NCBI GenBank assembly: GCA_965202605.1
Contig: OZ241838.1
Span: 3,325,008 to 3,389,007, forward strand
Source of the DNA: a bacterium
GTDB lineage: Bacteria; JAAXHH01
Direction: 5' to 3'
Length of the DNA: 64,000 nucleotides
Numbering within the stretch: the stretch's first letter is position 1; each line of letters opens with the position of its first letter. The translations under genes were made by a program, and so were the position numbers. This document shows, piece after piece, positions 41,100 through 48,915 of this stretch. The notes beneath the pieces were generated by a model. It saw nothing but the letters and a program-made list of their open reading frames with translations. It made no database searches and had not been told where the DNA came from.

Positions 41100-41238
41100 T
41101 GGGGTGTTTCCGTAGGCACACGCTGTTTGTTACAACAAATCAATCGATAATTAGTGGAATGTCCGTATTTACGCAGGAATTGTGAGTATTGACCCCAATA
41201 TGAGTTCGTTATTGATTGTCCTCAATGCTATATGGAAA

Positions 41239-42096
41239 CTATTCTGATCGCCGCCGAAGAAACTCCAAGTCGATGCCCTCGAGTAAATTACGCCGGGTTG
41301 TAACGGATAGGTTCGAAAGATGCGCTTGTGCTATCAAGTCAGGGGATATGTCATCTGTTTGTAAGACAGTACCATCCTCATATATTTGAAAAACTCCTCT
41401 GTCAAAAGCCCTATGGCAGTAAACACAGAGCACAATACCGTTAGCCGGATTCGCTCGATTCTTCACATCTTTTGAATAACTGCTTATGTGGGCTACTTCA
41501 AGCACCTGTTTGAGGGTCGTACCACATATTGTGCAAATGTAATTCTGGCGGTGCAGGACTGATTTCTTGAATCGTTCTAAATTGTGTCGCCGTCTGACAA
41601 ATGTCCACGCCTCTGGTATTTCATATTCATGGGATTCCGGTGGTACGGTCTCAATCAAGTTCCCTCGGTAGGCAAGTTCTATGATATTTCTAAACATGTC
41701 TAGACTAAGTTCAGCAATTGACCGTGACCAGCCTAACATGTTGACGTCGGAGATACCCAATATTGACCTGTTTTTTCTCCCCTCGACACTAGTTGTCCTT
41801 ATGTCGAGAGTATTGACGTACTCAACATAGTCGCAAAGTTCAGCGGTGTATATTTTCTTTACCCTGGAATTCAAACGTTCTGTATTATTGGGTGATCTCG
41901 TAAGCACCTTCGCTACGACTCCATGACCGGTGAAACCGTAGCCACCACCCCTTTTATCCAAGTAAACAAAGGAATCTTCAGAACTCACTTTGATCGAATG
42001 TCTATTGTCATAGACGTATGCTTCACCAGGTTCGTCGCCGTATTGGTCTTGATCTGAATGTTTGAATATCCAATAAGTCATGAGACGCAGACCCAT
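41239..42096 (-). CDS. HNH endonuclease with an uncharacterised N-terminal domain
   Basis: C-terminal CTICG...H...N...N...CVYCH motif arrangement typical of HNH nucleases. The roughly 190-aa N-terminal domain is not recognised. Lower-GC gene. Confidence 0.65.
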   Translation of the reverse strand: MGLRLMTYWIFKHSDQDQYGDEPGEAYVYDNRHSIKVSSEDSFVYLDKRGGGYGFTGHGVVAKVLTRSPNNTERLNSRVKKIYTAELCDYVEYVNTLDIRTTSVEGRKNRSILGISDVNMLGWSRSIAELSLDMFRNIIELAYRGNLIETVPPESHEYEIPEAWTFVRRRHNLERFKKSVLHRQNYICTICGTTLKQVLEVAHISSYSKDVKNRANPANGIVLCVYCHRAFDRGVFQIYEDGTVLQTDDISPDLIAQAHLSNLSVTTRRNLLEGIDLEFLRRRSE

Positions 42097-42278
42097 TCTG
42101 CTTTGGTCAAGTCATTCCCGTGTATGTATAAACAGCATCTAATGGTGTCTGAATAAATCGAACAGTGGCTTTCGTAAGATACCCACATCAGAACCCCTCT
42201 TCCACCTGCCTTAGAATCACTTATGAAGTAATTTCGGCCGAGTCTCTAGGGAACGGTAGCCATAGTAAGTAAGACAAC

Positions 42279-43271
42279 TTACACGTCACTTTGTATAGTT
42301 TGATGCTCCAAAGACCACAGTTGCAGCCATTCCTCAAGCTCCAACGCAGTAACGGTCGGACCTGTGGAGAGGTCCACCTTATAGTGAGTTCCAGAAACTC
42401 CTGCGGGCTCAGGCATACGAAAGTGAGGGACATCAGTCGAACGGAACCAAGCAAGACTTGCCCCCGCTGCGATGGCATCAAATCTAGGTCCGTTTTCTGA
42501 GATGTTCTCCATTCCCGCCTTACGTACTGCCTTTTCTAGCTTCAGGAAACAGGGCATTCCAAGTATAGCACTTCTACACTCTAGGATGAGTTGTCGTAGG
42601 CTAAGGCCAGAATCATCTTCATTCACAGTAAGGGATGCAATGAGAATCTCTTCATCCTCAATCGTGTAGATTTGCCTATGTGAAAAGTGATGGATTCGCT
42701 CTGACCTAGTAGTAGTTTTAACCTCAATTCGTCTTTGACCATACGTGAAGTCAAATCTCCGAGTTGTATCACTGTGCCAGAAAGGTAACCAGAACCGAAA
42801 GCCTCGGACCCGGCTCATCATAAACAGTTCACCCCACAAACCGAGTTGTTCACTCCAGACGTCTCTCGCTGGCGTAACCTCGAATAGTCTAACCATCGAT
42901 CTAAAAAACGATGTAACATCATCTTGTTCGATAATATCCCCTGAATGGCGAGACAAGAAGGCTTCCGACAGGACAAGGAAAGTTTCTATATCCGTTGGAT
43001 TGCCTGTCTCACAATACAGTGCGTGAAGAAACTCTATCCCTGGTTTCCCGGTTGTCGTAGAGACACTGTAGTTCTGACCAATATGTAGTGATACCATTTT
43101 CGTATGGAGCGAGGGTTCTAGTGCACCTTCCTGTGCTCGTACGAACAATACTGGGTGACCATCTAGATCCACACCCAAAAGCACGTTTTGATAACCCGGT
43201 ATACTAGCAACGGTGTAGGCATGACCGGATGGTTTTTCCGTTAGTTGCTGATACACCGCTTTGAGTCTCAT
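42279..43271 (-). CDS. Hypothetical protein, possible PD-(D/E)xK-fold nuclease
   Basis: GELF...FDF...(9 aa)...EVK spacing resembles a PD-(D/E)xK catalytic core. Start overlaps the Z1 gene stop by 4 bp. Confidence 0.35.
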   Translation of the reverse strand: MRLKAVYQQLTEKPSGHAYTVASIPGYQNVLLGVDLDGHPVLFVRAQEGALEPSLHTKMVSLHIGQNYSVSTTTGKPGIEFLHALYCETGNPTDIETFLVLSEAFLSRHSGDIIEQDDVTSFFRSMVRLFEVTPARDVWSEQLGLWGELFMMSRVRGFRFWLPFWHSDTTRRFDFTYGQRRIEVKTTTRSERIHHFSHRQIYTIEDEEILIASLTVNEDDSGLSLRQLILECRSAILGMPCFLKLEKAVRKAGMENISENGPRFDAIAAGASLAWFRSTDVPHFRMPEPAGVSGTHYKVDLSTGPTVTALELEEWLQLWSLEHQTIQSDV

Positions 43272-46973: not shown

Positions 46974-47032
46974 CCGGTCCCCTTTCAGTCAGCATCTCGG
47001 CAAGTAGGAGGCAACATGTTCTCTCCGTTGGA

Positions 47033-48343
47033 CTATCTGGTTCCTAGAAATCTCTTGGCAATCTCATACACTACGTCAACATGAACTGCGTTCCCAAGCG
47101 CCTTGAATGTTGCAGCCCTAGAATTTGGGACGTTGAAATCGTCGTTAAAGCCTTGTAAACGCAACCCTTCGACTCGAGTAAAGTGTCGTTGCTCAGGACC
47201 AAGGATTGGAATCTGAGTGCTTGTCATCGCGACTAAGGACGGACTACTTACATATCTCTTGACACGCAGCCCAGAAGGCCTGAACTGTAGAATATGTTTC
47301 CATAGATTCCTCTCTTCACCTTGGCAGTTCCACTCAAGTTTGCGGAGTGTTGGAGGAAAGGTGCGGAGGTTACTAATCCATTTTGATGAAAGATTATCGC
47401 GAATTGATGCAAGCCATTCACGATTTGACTTAATAAACCTTACTTTCCATTTCGGAAACTTTTCAACTTCTGTCCGTGCATAACTAGGAAGATCGTAGTA
47501 GGCTTCCCAAGTTTGAAAATGCCCGTTACTGGTAATAATTGAGTCATTTGTCGCGGCGAGCATAGCAGCCCAAGGTGTTATCTCTTCATAGGGATAGTCA
47601 GCACTGATTTCATCCCCCCAAATTGGGAATGAAGGTAGAGTTGTTCTTTCCTCTGGTAACGCACAAAGGAATGAGTTCCAGTGCTCAATGCATCGACGAT
47701 GTTGGTCAAAAATTTGAGTTTCTTCCTTGTCACATTCTGATAGATCGTCCCTAGGCTGCACGATGTCAGCCATGTTTGTCACTGCCGTTCGATTTCTAGG
47801 TGGGAAAACACTCTTTGATAGATCATCGAGAGATGCGACAGCGAAGAATCGTTCACGGTGATGAGGTAAACCAAGGTGGTGTGGTGAGAGTAGTCCTTCT
47901 CCACCACTCGTTAAATGTTCTGTCCCAACGACGTTATAGTCTAATTTCTCAATGCTAGACTTAACTATACGCCAGGTCCACCCTTCGTCGTGACGTTCAA
48001 AGTTCCCAACATTTTCCAAAATAACATGTTTCGGTCTATGCCTTTCCAGGATTTCCAATATCTCGTGAAAAAGGGTTCCACTCGTTTCGTCATTCAAACC
48101 AGCCTGGGCCCCCGACTTTGAGAAGGGCTGGCATGGAAACCCAGCGCACAGCAAGTCATGAGACGGCACATGCTGCTTTGACAGCCGTATGTCACCGTGG
48201 ATTGGAGGTCCGTCAGGAAAATTGCGACCGTAAATCTCTTGGAGTTGGCTATCAATCTCGGCGGCAAAGACACACTCATGACCAAGTCGCTCTAGAGCAA
48301 CTCGAAAACCACCAATACCTGCGAAAAGATCAACAAACTTCAT
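47033..48343 (-). CDS. DNA (cytosine-5)-methyltransferase
   Basis: Motif I DLFAGIGGF, motif IV GFPCQPFS (PC catalytic Cys), motif VI ENV, C-terminal GNAV motif X. Confidence 0.9.
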   Translation of the reverse strand: MKFVDLFAGIGGFRVALERLGHECVFAAEIDSQLQEIYGRNFPDGPPIHGDIRLSKQHVPSHDLLCAGFPCQPFSKSGAQAGLNDETSGTLFHEILEILERHRPKHVILENVGNFERHDEGWTWRIVKSSIEKLDYNVVGTEHLTSGGEGLLSPHHLGLPHHRERFFAVASLDDLSKSVFPPRNRTAVTNMADIVQPRDDLSECDKEETQIFDQHRRCIEHWNSFLCALPEERTTLPSFPIWGDEISADYPYEEITPWAAMLAATNDSIITSNGHFQTWEAYYDLPSYARTEVEKFPKWKVRFIKSNREWLASIRDNLSSKWISNLRTFPPTLRKLEWNCQGEERNLWKHILQFRPSGLRVKRYVSSPSLVAMTSTQIPILGPEQRHFTRVEGLRLQGFNDDFNVPNSRAATFKALGNAVHVDVVYEIAKRFLGTR

Positions 48344-48915
48344 TTTAAATTACCTAAGCCTGAATTGGCCAGTCAAAAGAACTCCAATCTGTGCATCATA
48401 TCTTCCCGGTCATGGGTTCTACGGATTACCTAGAATAGCTGGTAGGTACTGTTTAGTTTGCCCGAAGCCTTAGAGTAAAAAGCGTTGGTGCATCTCTAAA
48501 ACTGAACAGGAAATGAATACTACGATGCCTATTACCGACATACCGACAGCAAAATGTTTTGATCGGGCCCCATGAAGCTTTTGTAGGGAAAAGCAACAGC
48601 CAATTCCTGAACCATCTATTTACTGGAATGGCTTAGTGTTGAACCGCCGCTACTAGTGAGCCCATCTTGGATTGTATTGATCAGCCCTATAAAGGGAGGG
48701 AAGTTCTATGAAAAATCAACTTAGACCGCTGTTGTCGAAACTCTTACCAGAATAACCCTTACAAACCTAGAATCCGACTAAAAGCCCATTAATGCCCTTT
48801 GGCGGACTTAAAATGAAAATCTACCCGTGATTAAATTCTCTACTGCATGCGGTAAGGATTGAGATTCGACCTGGCTTATGCACGTAGACACAAACAGATA
48901 ACTGTACTGTAACAT

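What the first reader, a model, noticed from the sequence alone, without database searches (positions are those of the whole stretch)
41100..48915. Lower-GC island: C5-methyltransferase + GHKL (MORC-like) ATPase + Z1-domain NTPase + PD-(D/E)xK-like protein + HNH endonuclease, a candidate multi-component DNA-modification-linked defence system
Five co-oriented minus-strand genes sit in a block whose base composition is visibly AT-richer than the flanking transporter and ferredoxin genes, which argues for horizontal acquisition. The GHKL ATPase, Z1 protein and 42279..43271 overlap stop-to-start (14 bp and 4 bp), so they are probably co-translated; the methyltransferase lies 59 bp upstream and the HNH gene 182 bp downstream. 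The GHKL protein has Bergerat N-box and G1-box motifs but no histidine-kinase dimerisation or TM domains, so it is not a signalling kinase. Combinations of MORC-like GHKL ATPases, Z1 proteins, methylases and nucleases have been noted as restriction-modification-like neighbourhoods, and a helicase-methylase-ATPase anti-phage system (Hma) has been reported, but I cannot tell from sequence whether this locus matches a defined system or is a new arrangement. The unrecognised N-terminal domain of the HNH protein could be a modified-base reader, which would imply a two-layer logic (self-methylation plus ATP-driven sensing and cleavage).
Basis: partly seen in the sequence, partly recalled or inferred. 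Interest (0 to 1): 0.85.

Follow-up and report, generated by a model that had tools for sequence, protein, structure and literature searches.

The report
MORC restriction-modification cassette plus reader nuclease
A 7.8-kb piece of foreign DNA carries a widespread four-gene DNA-methylation-and-cutting system, predicted by computer in 2008 and apparently never tested, that includes a bacterial relative of animal MORC proteins, with a separate nuclease beside it that probably cuts chemically modified DNA.

Summary
Five intact minus-strand genes sit in a sharply bounded AT-rich island: GC 0.46 against 0.63, GC3 about 0.42 against about 0.82. All five domain calls hold, and the gene overlaps and gaps are 14, 4, 59 and 182 nt as stated.

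It is not one five-gene system and not a new arrangement.

The first four genes are Dcm, a MORC-type GHKL ATPase, a DEAD-Z1 motor and a DUF4420 PD-(D/E)xK nuclease. They form a translationally coupled cassette found in the same order in 41 of 80 genome loci from bacteria and archaea. This is the "third type" of prokaryotic MORC restriction-modification operon that Iyer, Abhiman and Aravind predicted in 2008. I found no experimental study of it. The closest characterised relative is CglI/NgoAVII. It is not Mza, Hma or Druantia.

The fifth gene folds as a PUA/EVE-like reader fused to an HNH nuclease, like VcaM4I and TagI. That makes it a candidate Type IV modification-dependent enzyme. It travels with the cassette only in one subclade and also occurs alone elsewhere.

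Most likely mechanism (inferred): C5 methylation protects self DNA, and an ATP-driven MORC/Z1/DUF4420 complex cuts unmethylated DNA.

Verdict: new member of a known, computationally predicted kind. Interest is moderate.

The parts
41100..41238 (.). Left island junction: non-coding, and the point where composition switches
   Evidence: GC in 100-nt windows falls from 0.63 to 0.42 between 41000 and 41100. The ABC permease ORF ends at 41099. No flanking repeat, tRNA or integrase was found.
41239..42096 (-). PUA/EVE-like reader domain (about residues 1-140) fused to an HNH nuclease (about residues 160-260). A candidate Type IV modification-dependent restriction endonuclease, separable from the cassette.
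   Evidence: Pfam HNH_2 and HNH. The best PDB sequence hit is 6yex, VcaM4I. The AF2 model has pLDDT 93. Foldseek gives VcaM4I at 6.6e-9, and also EVE, THYN1-5mC, ASCH, YTH and TagI. Invariant residues are W4, F6, K7, Y22 and the CxxC/H/N/CxxCH set. Genomic contexts.
42097..42278 (.). 182-nt spacer between the cassette and the HNH gene. The HNH gene probably has its own promoter here.
   Evidence: Coordinates. The relative L082 has a 345-nt spacer at this position, and L089 has three extra genes there.
42279..43271 (-). DUF4420 protein, the 'NRE' of Iyer 2008. It has a variable N-terminal domain and a conserved PD-(D/E)xK nuclease core. This is the presumed cleavage subunit.
   Evidence: Pfam DUF4420 2.4e-20 across the full length. 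E148, D174, E183 and K185 are invariant or nearly so across 18 divergent homologues. Its start overlaps the Z1 stop by 4 nt.
43268..45415 (-). DEAD-Z1 SF2 helicase-like motor, a homologue of the H subunit of CglI/NgoAVII
   Evidence: Pfam Z1 1.1e-43. PADLOC 'Type II helicase domain protein' 1.2e-51 and MzaC 3.5e-31. Motifs GKVQSGKT, DDEGD, TATP and DTMEQRARWFG match the unusual Walker A, the short QxxR motif VI and the Z1 signature described in PMC5861437 and PMC2292703.
45402..46973 (-). Prokaryotic MORC-family GHKL+S5 ATPase with a conserved C-terminal alpha/beta extension
   Evidence: Pfam HATPase_c_3. It carries the MORC-specific S5 motif GhXhhpXXRhl as G269FALLRRGRVI. AF2 model pLDDT is 74.7. 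The best rigid structural fits are MORC3 and MORC4 ATPase modules, at rmsd 5.7-6.2 A over about 400 columns. More than 2100 homologues were found, 58-83% identical among the top 120.
47033..48343 (-). C5-cytosine DNA methyltransferase (Dcm type), the first gene of the operon
   Evidence: Pfam DNA_methylase 5.7e-61, TIGR00675 3e-57. All catalytic motifs are present. A Dcm is present in every complete cassette examined.
48344..48915 (-). 572-nt AT-rich non-coding leader upstream of dcm. It is the presumed promoter region and the right island junction.
   Evidence: GC is 0.38-0.46 up to about 48880. It holds only ORFs of 54 aa or fewer, no Rfam family and no convincing promoter signal above chance. 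It does not align with L082 beyond a short stretch after the ferredoxin stop codon.

Best explanation
The island carries two separable defence modules.

(1) A four-gene operon, dcm - MORC - DEAD-Z1 - DUF4420. This is the 'type 3' prokaryotic MORC restriction-modification operon predicted by Iyer, Abhiman and Aravind (2008). The following mechanism is inferred, not shown. The Dcm enzyme methylates a specific cytosine motif on host DNA. Unmethylated incoming DNA is bound by a complex of DUF4420, Z1 and MORC. As in its CglI homologue, the DEAD-Z1 subunit burns ATP to translocate along double-stranded DNA from the recognition site. The MORC subunit dimerises on ATP like other GHKL+S5 clamps and traps or loops DNA, or gates the nuclease. 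The PD-(D/E)xK core of DUF4420 then makes the cut. Which subunit reads the target sequence is unresolved: it could be the variable DUF4420 N-domain or the methyltransferase itself.

(2) A stand-alone PUA/EVE-like-HNH enzyme. It probably flips out and reads a modified base, and cuts DNA that carries a modification the host's own Dcm does not make. That would target phages that escape module 1 by hypermodifying their DNA.

The window's island looks like a trimmed version of a larger mobile island seen in relatives.
For: Shown:
- Domain identities, with all catalytic motifs intact and conserved.
- The order M-G-Z-D is found in 41 of 80 genome loci, from Chloroflexota, Bacteroidota, Bacillota, Spirochaetota, Actinomycetota, Pseudomonadota, Mycoplasmatota, Thermoplasmata, Altiarchaeales and Methanoperedens.
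- Junction medians are -4, -4 and -1 nt, which points to translational coupling that includes dcm.
- No complete G-Z-D set lacks a Dcm, as expected if the methylase is needed for self-protection.
- T:G-mismatch-type repair genes (HhH-GPD) follow the cassette in L001, L002, L005 and L089, which is consistent with real 5mC production.
- The Z1 protein is homologous to the CglI H subunit, a proven dsDNA translocase needed for cleavage.
- The GHKL protein has the MORC motif and a MORC3/4-like predicted fold.
- The operon type is described in PMC2292703.
- The HNH fold matches VcaM4I, TagI and EVE domains (PMC7897488 and PMC6765204).
- HNH homologues stand alone in L083/84 and L087.
- In L089 the cassette, HhH-GPD, a PD-Lambda-5_A-like gene, the HNH gene and a large serine recombinase lie on one island.
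- Foreign origin is supported by GC3 of 0.42 against 0.82.
Against: - No biochemical or phage-challenge data for this cassette turned up in the held library. Restriction activity, target motif, stoichiometry and the role of MORC are therefore all inferred.
- The GHKL model has only moderate confidence (pLDDT 74.7), and Hsp90/TRAP1 score as well as MORC by Foldseek E-value.
- The Dcm lineage changes between close cassettes (72% to 42% identity) while G, Z and D stay at 55-63%. This sits awkwardly with a sequence-specific R subunit.
- The HNH gene does co-occur with the cassette on at least 10 contigs of one subclade (matching contig lengths; L082, L089), and with a Dcm+HATPase_c_3 pair in Spiribacter. 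Some functional link therefore cannot be excluded.
Confidence: 0.7

Rival explanations
1. Type III-like variant of the same system. The Dcm methyltransferase is itself the sequence-recognition subunit of the restriction complex, as Mod is in Type III systems or PglX in BREX. Z1 and DUF4420 together act as a split 'Res', and MORC acts as a clamp. DUF4420 has no sequence specificity of its own.
For: dcm is the first gene and overlaps or abuts the MORC gene in most loci: the M-G junction median is -4 nt, and it is 30 nt or less in 38 of 41 loci. The Dcm lineage can be swapped (72% to 42% identity) with little change in G, Z or D, which is easy if specificity resides in M. Iyer et al. compare these operons to Type III systems.
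Against: In the characterised relative CglI, recognition sits in the R subunit and the methylase is separate. The DUF4420 N-terminal 100 residues are its most variable part, as expected for a recognition domain. In the window dcm is 59 nt away and not overlapping. In L067 dcm lies after DUF4420, and in L038 it is on the opposite strand.
Confidence: 0.2
2. All five genes form one obligate machine. The PUA-HNH protein is the effector or second nuclease of the MORC/Z1/DUF4420 complex.
For: The five-gene block is conserved at the same chromosomal site in the closest relative, L082. HNH and DUF4420 homologues share at least 10 contigs, judged by matching contig lengths. An HNH homologue lies near a Dcm+HATPase_c_3 pair in Spiribacter. 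HNH_2 follows the cassette in L048 and follows a GHKL gene in L054. Iyer et al. note HNH genes in some MORC operons.
Against: Of the 41 complete cassettes in named genomes, only L048 has an HNH match, and it is weak. Cassettes 74-75% identical in GHKL (L002, L004) have none within 10 kb. HNH homologues occur alone among housekeeping genes. In L089 three unrelated genes separate the HNH gene from the cassette. In the window a 182-nt gap contrasts with the 4- and 14-nt overlaps inside the cassette. The architecture is that of self-sufficient enzymes such as VcaM4I and TagI.
Confidence: 0.08
3. Not defence. The cassette is a methylation-directed DNA-repair or epigenetic maintenance module: MutL-like MORC, a helicase and a nuclease, analogous to MutL-UvrD-MutH/Vsr. 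It would process lesions or mismatches at Dcm sites.
For: GHKL+S5 proteins include MutL. Iyer et al. raise occasional recruitment to repair. HhH-GPD glycosylases or Vsr often accompany the operon.
Against: The cassette is foreign by composition. Its distribution across bacteria and archaea is patchy, with 55-83% identity. It travels with recombinases, integrases and other defence genes. The Z1 motor's only characterised role is in a restriction enzyme. A repair accessory is expected beside any active Dcm.
Confidence: 0.05

Closest known systems
'Type 3' prokaryotic MORC restriction-modification operon of Iyer, Abhiman & Aravind 2008 (DCM + MORC + SFII helicase with Z1 domain + novel RE-fold endonuclease 'NRE')
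   Same: Same four families in one operon. The Z1 signature DThhQXuRhFG appears here as DTMEQRARWFG. The NRE E-D-ExK motif appears as E148, D174, E183xK185. The MORC S5 motif GhXhhpXXRhl appears as GFALLRRGRVI. Like the published operons it is patchy, laterally mobile and spans bacteria and archaea.
   Different: Nothing essential differs. The window lacks the Vsr gene often seen and has no HhH-GPD substitute, and a PUA-HNH gene is appended. The published description is purely computational.
CglI / NgoAVII ATP-dependent restriction enzymes (M + R + H subunits; R2H2 complex)
   Same: A C5 methyltransferase together with a DEAD-Z1 motor that has the unusual Q-containing Walker A and the short QxxR motif VI. 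The motor is needed for long-range translocation that activates cleavage.
   Different: The nuclease here is a PD-(D/E)xK DUF4420 protein, not a PLD-B3 R subunit. An extra MORC ATPase is present. The Z1 protein is 715 aa against 632 aa. No sequence relation between the R subunits was tested or found.
Mza five-gene anti-phage system (PADLOC / NCBIfam MzaA-E)
   Same: It contains a GHKL ATPase (MzaB) and a Z1-domain protein (MzaC). The window's Z1 matches MzaC over the Z1 domain (3.5e-31 and 3.4e-38).
   Different: Scores are far below the equivalog cut-offs: 131 against 1500 bits for MzaC and 19 against 850 for MzaB. PADLOC gives no MzaB hit for the GHKL protein and no Mza hit for DUF4420 or HNH. 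Gene number and content also differ.
PUA-HNH modification-dependent restriction endonucleases (VcaM4I EVE-HNH; TagI SRA-HNH)
   Same: The same two-domain architecture and size (280-309 aa). VcaM4I is the best PDB match by both sequence and fold, and the N-domain matches EVE, ASCH and YTH readers, including THYN1 bound to 5mC DNA.
   Different: Only 12-15% identity. The N-domain is not recognised by any Pfam model. The ligand is unknown and must be compatible with the neighbouring Dcm.
Eukaryotic MORC ATPases (MORC3, MORC4)
   Same: A GHKL+S5 module with the family-specific S5 motif, and the best rigid structural superposition.
   Different: No CW zinc finger or coiled coil. It has its own roughly 180-residue C-terminal domain and is encoded in a restriction operon.

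Membership tests
Iyer-2008 type-3 MORC R-M operon | GHKL+S5 ATPase carrying the MORC-specific GhXhhpXXRhl motif | tested here: met
   G269-FALLRRGRVI. The core residues are invariant or nearly so in the 21-sequence alignment. The predicted fold fits MORC3/4 best.
Iyer-2008 type-3 MORC R-M operon | SFII helicase with a C-terminal Z1 domain (DThhQXuRhFG) | tested here: met
   Pfam Z1 1.1e-43; DTMEQRARWFG at residue 447.
Iyer-2008 type-3 MORC R-M operon | Adjacent uncharacterised RE-fold protein with E-D-ExK | tested here: met
   DUF4420 2.4e-20; E148, D174, E183 and K185 conserved.
Iyer-2008 type-3 MORC R-M operon | Linked DNA (mostly cytosine) methylase in the same neighbourhood | tested here: met
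   Dcm lies 59 nt upstream. M-G-Z-D order is found in 41 of 80 loci.
Restriction-modification system (functional definition) | Methylation of a defined motif protects DNA from cleavage by the cognate nuclease | not testable with these tools
   Needs methylome and cleavage or plaque assays. The only indirect support is that dcm is obligately linked to the cassette.
CglI/NgoAVII family | DEAD-Z1 H subunit | tested here: met
   PADLOC/REBASE-derived 'Type II helicase domain protein' 1.2e-51 over residues 47-528. The motifs match those described in PMC5861437.
CglI/NgoAVII family | R subunit with a PLD nuclease and a B3-like DNA-binding domain | tested here: not met
   No PLD or B3 protein is present. 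The nuclease is a DUF4420 PD-(D/E)xK protein.
Mza (PADLOC/NCBIfam) | MzaB and MzaC equivalog scores, plus MzaA, MzaD and MzaE partners | tested here: not met
   MzaC 131 bits against a cut-off of 1500; MzaB 19 bits against 850. No other Mza hits.
Hma (helicase-methylase-ATPase) | Matches to the HmaA, HmaB and HmaC models | tested here: not met
   PADLOC returned only Helicase_II and MzaC for Z1 and nothing for GHKL. No Hma model appears among the 25 methylase hits shown, out of 54.
Druantia type II | DruM together with DruE, DruF and DruG | tested here: not met
   Only the methylase resembles DruM (3.8e-81). No DruE, DruF or DruG match was found for any other protein.
Classical histidine kinase | HisKA/DHp dimerisation domain with a C-terminal HATPase_c | tested here: not met
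   Only an N-terminal HATPase_c_3 is present. The top folds are MORC and Hsp90.
PUA-HNH Type IV MDRE (VcaM4I/TagI-like) | N-terminal PUA-superfamily fold plus a C-terminal HNH with zinc-binding cysteines and a catalytic His | tested here: met
   Model pLDDT 93. Foldseek VcaM4I 6.6e-9, plus EVE, ASCH, YTH and TagI. The CxxC/H/N/CxxCH residues are invariant.
PUA-HNH Type IV MDRE (VcaM4I/TagI-like) | Cleavage depends on a modified base | not testable with these tools
   Needs digestion of 5mC, 5hmC, glucosyl-hmC, 6mA and unmodified substrates.

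The most novel reading that the evidence does not exclude
The MORC-Z1-DUF4420 complex may be a mechanistically new class of restriction enzyme that couples two unrelated ATPases: a GHKL clamp and an SF2 translocase. The bacterial MORC would entrap DNA topologically in response to its methylation state. That would be the ancestral activity from which eukaryotic MORC gene silencing derives. In this subclade the cassette may also be deliberately paired with a PUA-HNH reader, so that phages escaping by cytosine hypermodification are caught by the second layer.
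Probability: 0.25. Interest if true: 0.7.

Novelty: new member of a known kind. Interest (0 to 1): 0.4.

Why it matters
The cassette is abundant and strikingly conserved. More than 2100 protein clusters match the MORC subunit, and its identity to archaeal copies is 55-56%. Yet PADLOC-DB v2 has no model matching its MORC or DUF4420 subunits, and a 2025 restriction-modification review never mentions MORC, GHKL, CglI or NgoAVII. I found no experimental work on the cassette.

It is the prokaryotic setting from which eukaryotic MORC chromatin ATPases are thought to derive. A tractable, intact example would therefore let one test what a MORC does on DNA, next to a methyltransferase, a translocase and a nuclease.

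For the genome scan itself, this is a correct and well-observed call of a known predicted system, not a discovery of a new kind.

Tried and rejected
- Searching the literature for 'Mza' returned journal codes only. Later searches established that Mza is a five-gene PADLOC system but gave no domain list.
- Exact-sequence look-ups of the window's own GHKL protein and of the Limnochorda homologue found no record.
- PDB sequence searches were uninformative: none for Z1 and only weak HtpG hits for the GHKL profile.
- I looked for island-integration signals. There are no tRNA genes, no convincing flanking direct or inverted repeats, promoter and terminator matches at or below chance and no Rfam family.
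- The upstream leader does not align with that of L082.
- Plasmid and phage collections hold almost nothing: 3 weak plasmid hits and no phage hit. A plasmid- or phage-borne origin is therefore not supported.
- I tried to find the sequence-recognition subunit from segment-wise identity across cassettes with different Dcm lineages. The result was inconclusive.
- I considered BsuMI as a relative from memory only. I could not test it, and its subunit sizes as I remember them do not fit.

Full report
**Observation**

The five minus-strand ORFs exist exactly as described:
- HNH 41239-42096
- DUF4420 42279-43271
- Z1 43268-45415
- GHKL 45402-46973
- Dcm 47033-48343

From these coordinates the GHKL/Z1 overlap is 14 nt and the Z1/DUF4420 overlap is 4 nt. 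Dcm ends 59 nt before the GHKL gene, and HNH starts 182 nt after DUF4420.

Pfam confirms every domain call: HNH_2 7.5e-10, DUF4420 2.4e-20 over the full length, Z1 1.1e-43, HATPase_c_3 1.6e-15 and DNA_methylase 5.7e-61.

The block is compositionally foreign. Its GC is 0.463 against 0.626 for the rest of the window. GC3 is 0.41-0.44 in the five genes and 0.79-0.85 in four flanking host genes. The switch happens within about 100 nt at 41050-41100 and 48880-48900. The flanks are ordinary metabolism: ABC transporter, aminotransferase, ferredoxin, epimerase and aldehyde dehydrogenase.

All catalytic motifs are present and gene lengths match those of relatives, so the genes look functional.

**The conserved unit has four genes, not five**

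The GHKL protein has more than 2100 homologues, 58-83% identical among the top 120. I scanned one genome per species with a profile of this protein and recovered 80 loci. Searching their ORFs with the five window proteins gave the following:
- Dcm-GHKL-Z1-DUF4420 occurs in that order in 41 loci.
- A further 14 loci carry part of the cassette. Most of these are cut by contig ends or have a variant gene order.
- Junction medians are -4, -4 and -1 nt.
- No complete GHKL-Z1-DUF4420 set lacks a Dcm.
- The hosts include Chloroflexota, Bacteroidota, Bacillota, Spirochaetota, Actinomycetota, Pseudomonadota, Mycoplasmatota, Thermoplasmata, Altiarchaeales and Methanoperedens. Archaeal GHKL copies are still 55-56% identical.

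The gene after DUF4420 varies:
- HhH-GPD glycosylase in L001, L002 and L005
- an AspBHI-like N-domain in three loci
- Mrr_cat in two loci
- EcoRII-C in one locus
- HNH_2 in one locus (L048)
- unrelated genes in the remaining loci examined

**This operon type is already in the literature**

Iyer, Abhiman and Aravind (2008, PMC2292703) described three types of prokaryotic MORC operon. Their third type combines four things:
- MORC;
- a 'distinct SFII helicase' whose C-terminal domain carries DThhQXuRhFG (later named Pfam Z1);
- an uncharacterised RE-fold protein with E-D-ExK (their 'NRE', later DUF4420);
- frequently a cytosine methylase and Vsr.

The window matches on every point:
- Z1 has DTMEQRARWFG.
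- DUF4420 has E148, D174 and E183-V-K185, conserved across 18 divergent homologues.
- The GHKL protein carries the MORC-specific S5 motif GhXhhpXXRhl as GFALLRRGRVI.

An AlphaFold model of the GHKL protein (pLDDT 74.7) fits MORC3 and MORC4 ATPase modules best as a rigid body, at rmsd 5.7-6.2 A over about 400 columns. Hsp90/TRAP1 have equal Foldseek E-values but rmsd of 16-20 A. No histidine kinase appears among the 50 matches listed.

**Relation to named systems**

The Z1 protein's best PADLOC match is the REBASE-derived 'Type II helicase domain protein' (1.2e-51). That is the H subunit class of CglI/NgoAVII. In CglI an R2H2 complex uses DEAD-Z1-driven dsDNA translocation to activate cleavage (PMC5861437, PMC4267653). 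The unusual Q-containing Walker A (GKVQSGKT) and the short QxxR motif VI are shared. The CglI R subunit (PLD + B3) is absent here, however, and a MORC subunit is added.

- Mza: the Mza models hit only the Z1 and GHKL domains, at scores far below the NCBIfam cut-offs (131 against 1500 bits; 19 against 850).
- Hma: no match.
- Druantia and DISARM: only the methylase resembles DruM or DrmMII.
- PADLOC-DB v2 has no model that matches this MORC protein or DUF4420.

Five full-text searches found no experimental work on the cassette. A 2025 restriction-modification review never mentions MORC, GHKL, CglI or NgoAVII.

**The fifth gene**

The HNH protein's N-terminal 140 residues match no Pfam family. 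An AlphaFold model built from 40 homologues is confident (pLDDT 93).

Foldseek places the whole protein next to VcaM4I, an EVE-HNH enzyme (6.6e-9), and next to TagI, an SRA-HNH enzyme. It places the N-domain next to EVE, ASCH and YTH readers, including THYN1 bound to 5mC DNA and the m6A-type McrB N-domain. VcaM4I is also the only significant PDB sequence hit. VcaM4I restricts 5hmC and 5mC.

Conserved aromatic residues (W4, F6, Y22, F38, Y40) and the CxxC/H/N/CxxCH set are invariant.

Genomic context shows that the gene is a separable module:
- In the nearest relative, L082, the same five genes sit at the same ferredoxin/ABC-transporter site.
- HNH and DUF4420 homologues share at least 10 contigs, judged by matching contig lengths.
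- In L089 the cassette is followed by HhH-GPD, a PD-Lambda-5_A-like gene, an unknown gene, then HNH, then a large serine recombinase. This is a multi-system mobile island, and the window looks like a trimmed version of it.
- Homologues at 41-54% identity stand alone among housekeeping genes (L083/84, L087), lie in a transposon-rich region (L088), or lie in a different defence island (L085).

Because the HNH gene co-resides with an active-looking Dcm, its ligand must be something that this Dcm does not produce, or a different sequence context.

**Mechanism**

Three things are shown: the components, their intact motifs, and tight operon coupling with obligate methylase linkage.

The rest is inferred. 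By homology to CglI, and from general GHKL behaviour:
- Dcm marks self DNA.
- DEAD-Z1 translocates on unmethylated DNA.
- MORC dimerises on ATP and clamps or loops DNA, or gates the nuclease.
- DUF4420 cuts.

I could not resolve which subunit reads the target sequence. The DUF4420 N-terminus is its most variable part. On the other hand, the Dcm lineage swaps (72% to 42% identity) while the other three proteins stay at 55-63%, and dcm is translationally coupled to the MORC gene in most loci. A Type III-like arrangement, with the methylase as specificity subunit, is therefore a serious rival.

**Verdict**

The locus is a new member of a computationally predicted but experimentally unexplored R-M class, with a neighbouring PUA-HNH Type IV-like enzyme. 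It is not a new kind of system.

Interest is moderate. Its value lies in the fact that no bacterial MORC restriction complex appears to have been characterised.

Noticed in passing
window 35600-36300: A second, small AT-rich patch (GC 0.48-0.49 against about 0.63) lies between a 236-aa ORF with no Pfam hit (34878-35588) and an aminotransferase gene. It holds only short ORFs: 79 aa at 35706-35945 and 74 aa with a hydrophobic N-terminal stretch (possible transmembrane segment) at 35942-36166. It may be another small foreign insertion.
   Followed up: partly
L050-L065 and others (e.g. L050:7075-11512): 25 of the 80 GHKL loci carry neither a Z1 nor a DUF4420 gene. In most of them the GHKL protein (about 33% identical to the window's) ends a different conserved operon. 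In L050 the order is N6_N4 methylase, a Rad25/ResIII-like helicase of about 400 aa, an unknown protein of about 260 aa, then GHKL. This matches Iyer's 'type 1' MORC operon and has almost no PADLOC coverage.
   Followed up: partly
L089:1063-12890: A larger mobile island in a metagenomic relative reads: Dcm-MORC-Z1-DUF4420, HhH-GPD, a 375-aa PD-Lambda-5_A/PDC-M38A-like protein, a 277-aa unknown, the PUA-HNH gene, an RHH protein and a large serine recombinase. An AIPR gene lies nearby on the other strand.
   Followed up: partly
L085:8001-16879 and L086: In Spiribacter sp. C176 and a related contig, a 44%-identical PUA-HNH homologue lies beside an SNF2 helicase and a 504-aa unknown protein on the opposite strand, and near a Dcm + HATPase_c_3 pair. 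This resembles Iyer's 'type 2' MORC operon (SWI2/SNF2 plus HNH), so the HNH-to-Dcm/GHKL link recurs in a second architecture.
   Followed up: no
Loci L019, L029, L039, L045, L075 and others (genes just after DUF4420): Among the 25 downstream ORFs scanned, three have an AspBHI-like N-terminal domain, two have Mrr_cat and one has EcoRII-C. AspBHI N-domains belong to 5mC-dependent enzymes, and Mrr-type nucleases are usually modification-dependent. Modification-dependent nucleases may therefore be recurrent neighbours of this Dcm-bearing cassette. The call reported only summary counts, so I could not tell which locus carries which.
   Followed up: no
window 48895-48912 and L082:~3240-3255: The only part of the AT-rich leader shared with the relative L082 is a 10-nt string, TACAGTACA(G/C), lying four bases after the ferredoxin stop codon. 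It may mark the island junction, but it is too short to judge.
   Followed up: no
window 37726-41099: Two long plus-strand ORFs overlap in different frames: 37726-40107 (793 aa, SBP_bac_1 + BPD_transp_1) and 38316-41099 (927 aa, BPD_transp_1 only at residues 731-920). The second gene's real start is probably far downstream of 38316. The relative L082 has a 720-aa SBP-permease fusion followed by a 306-aa permease.
   Followed up: no
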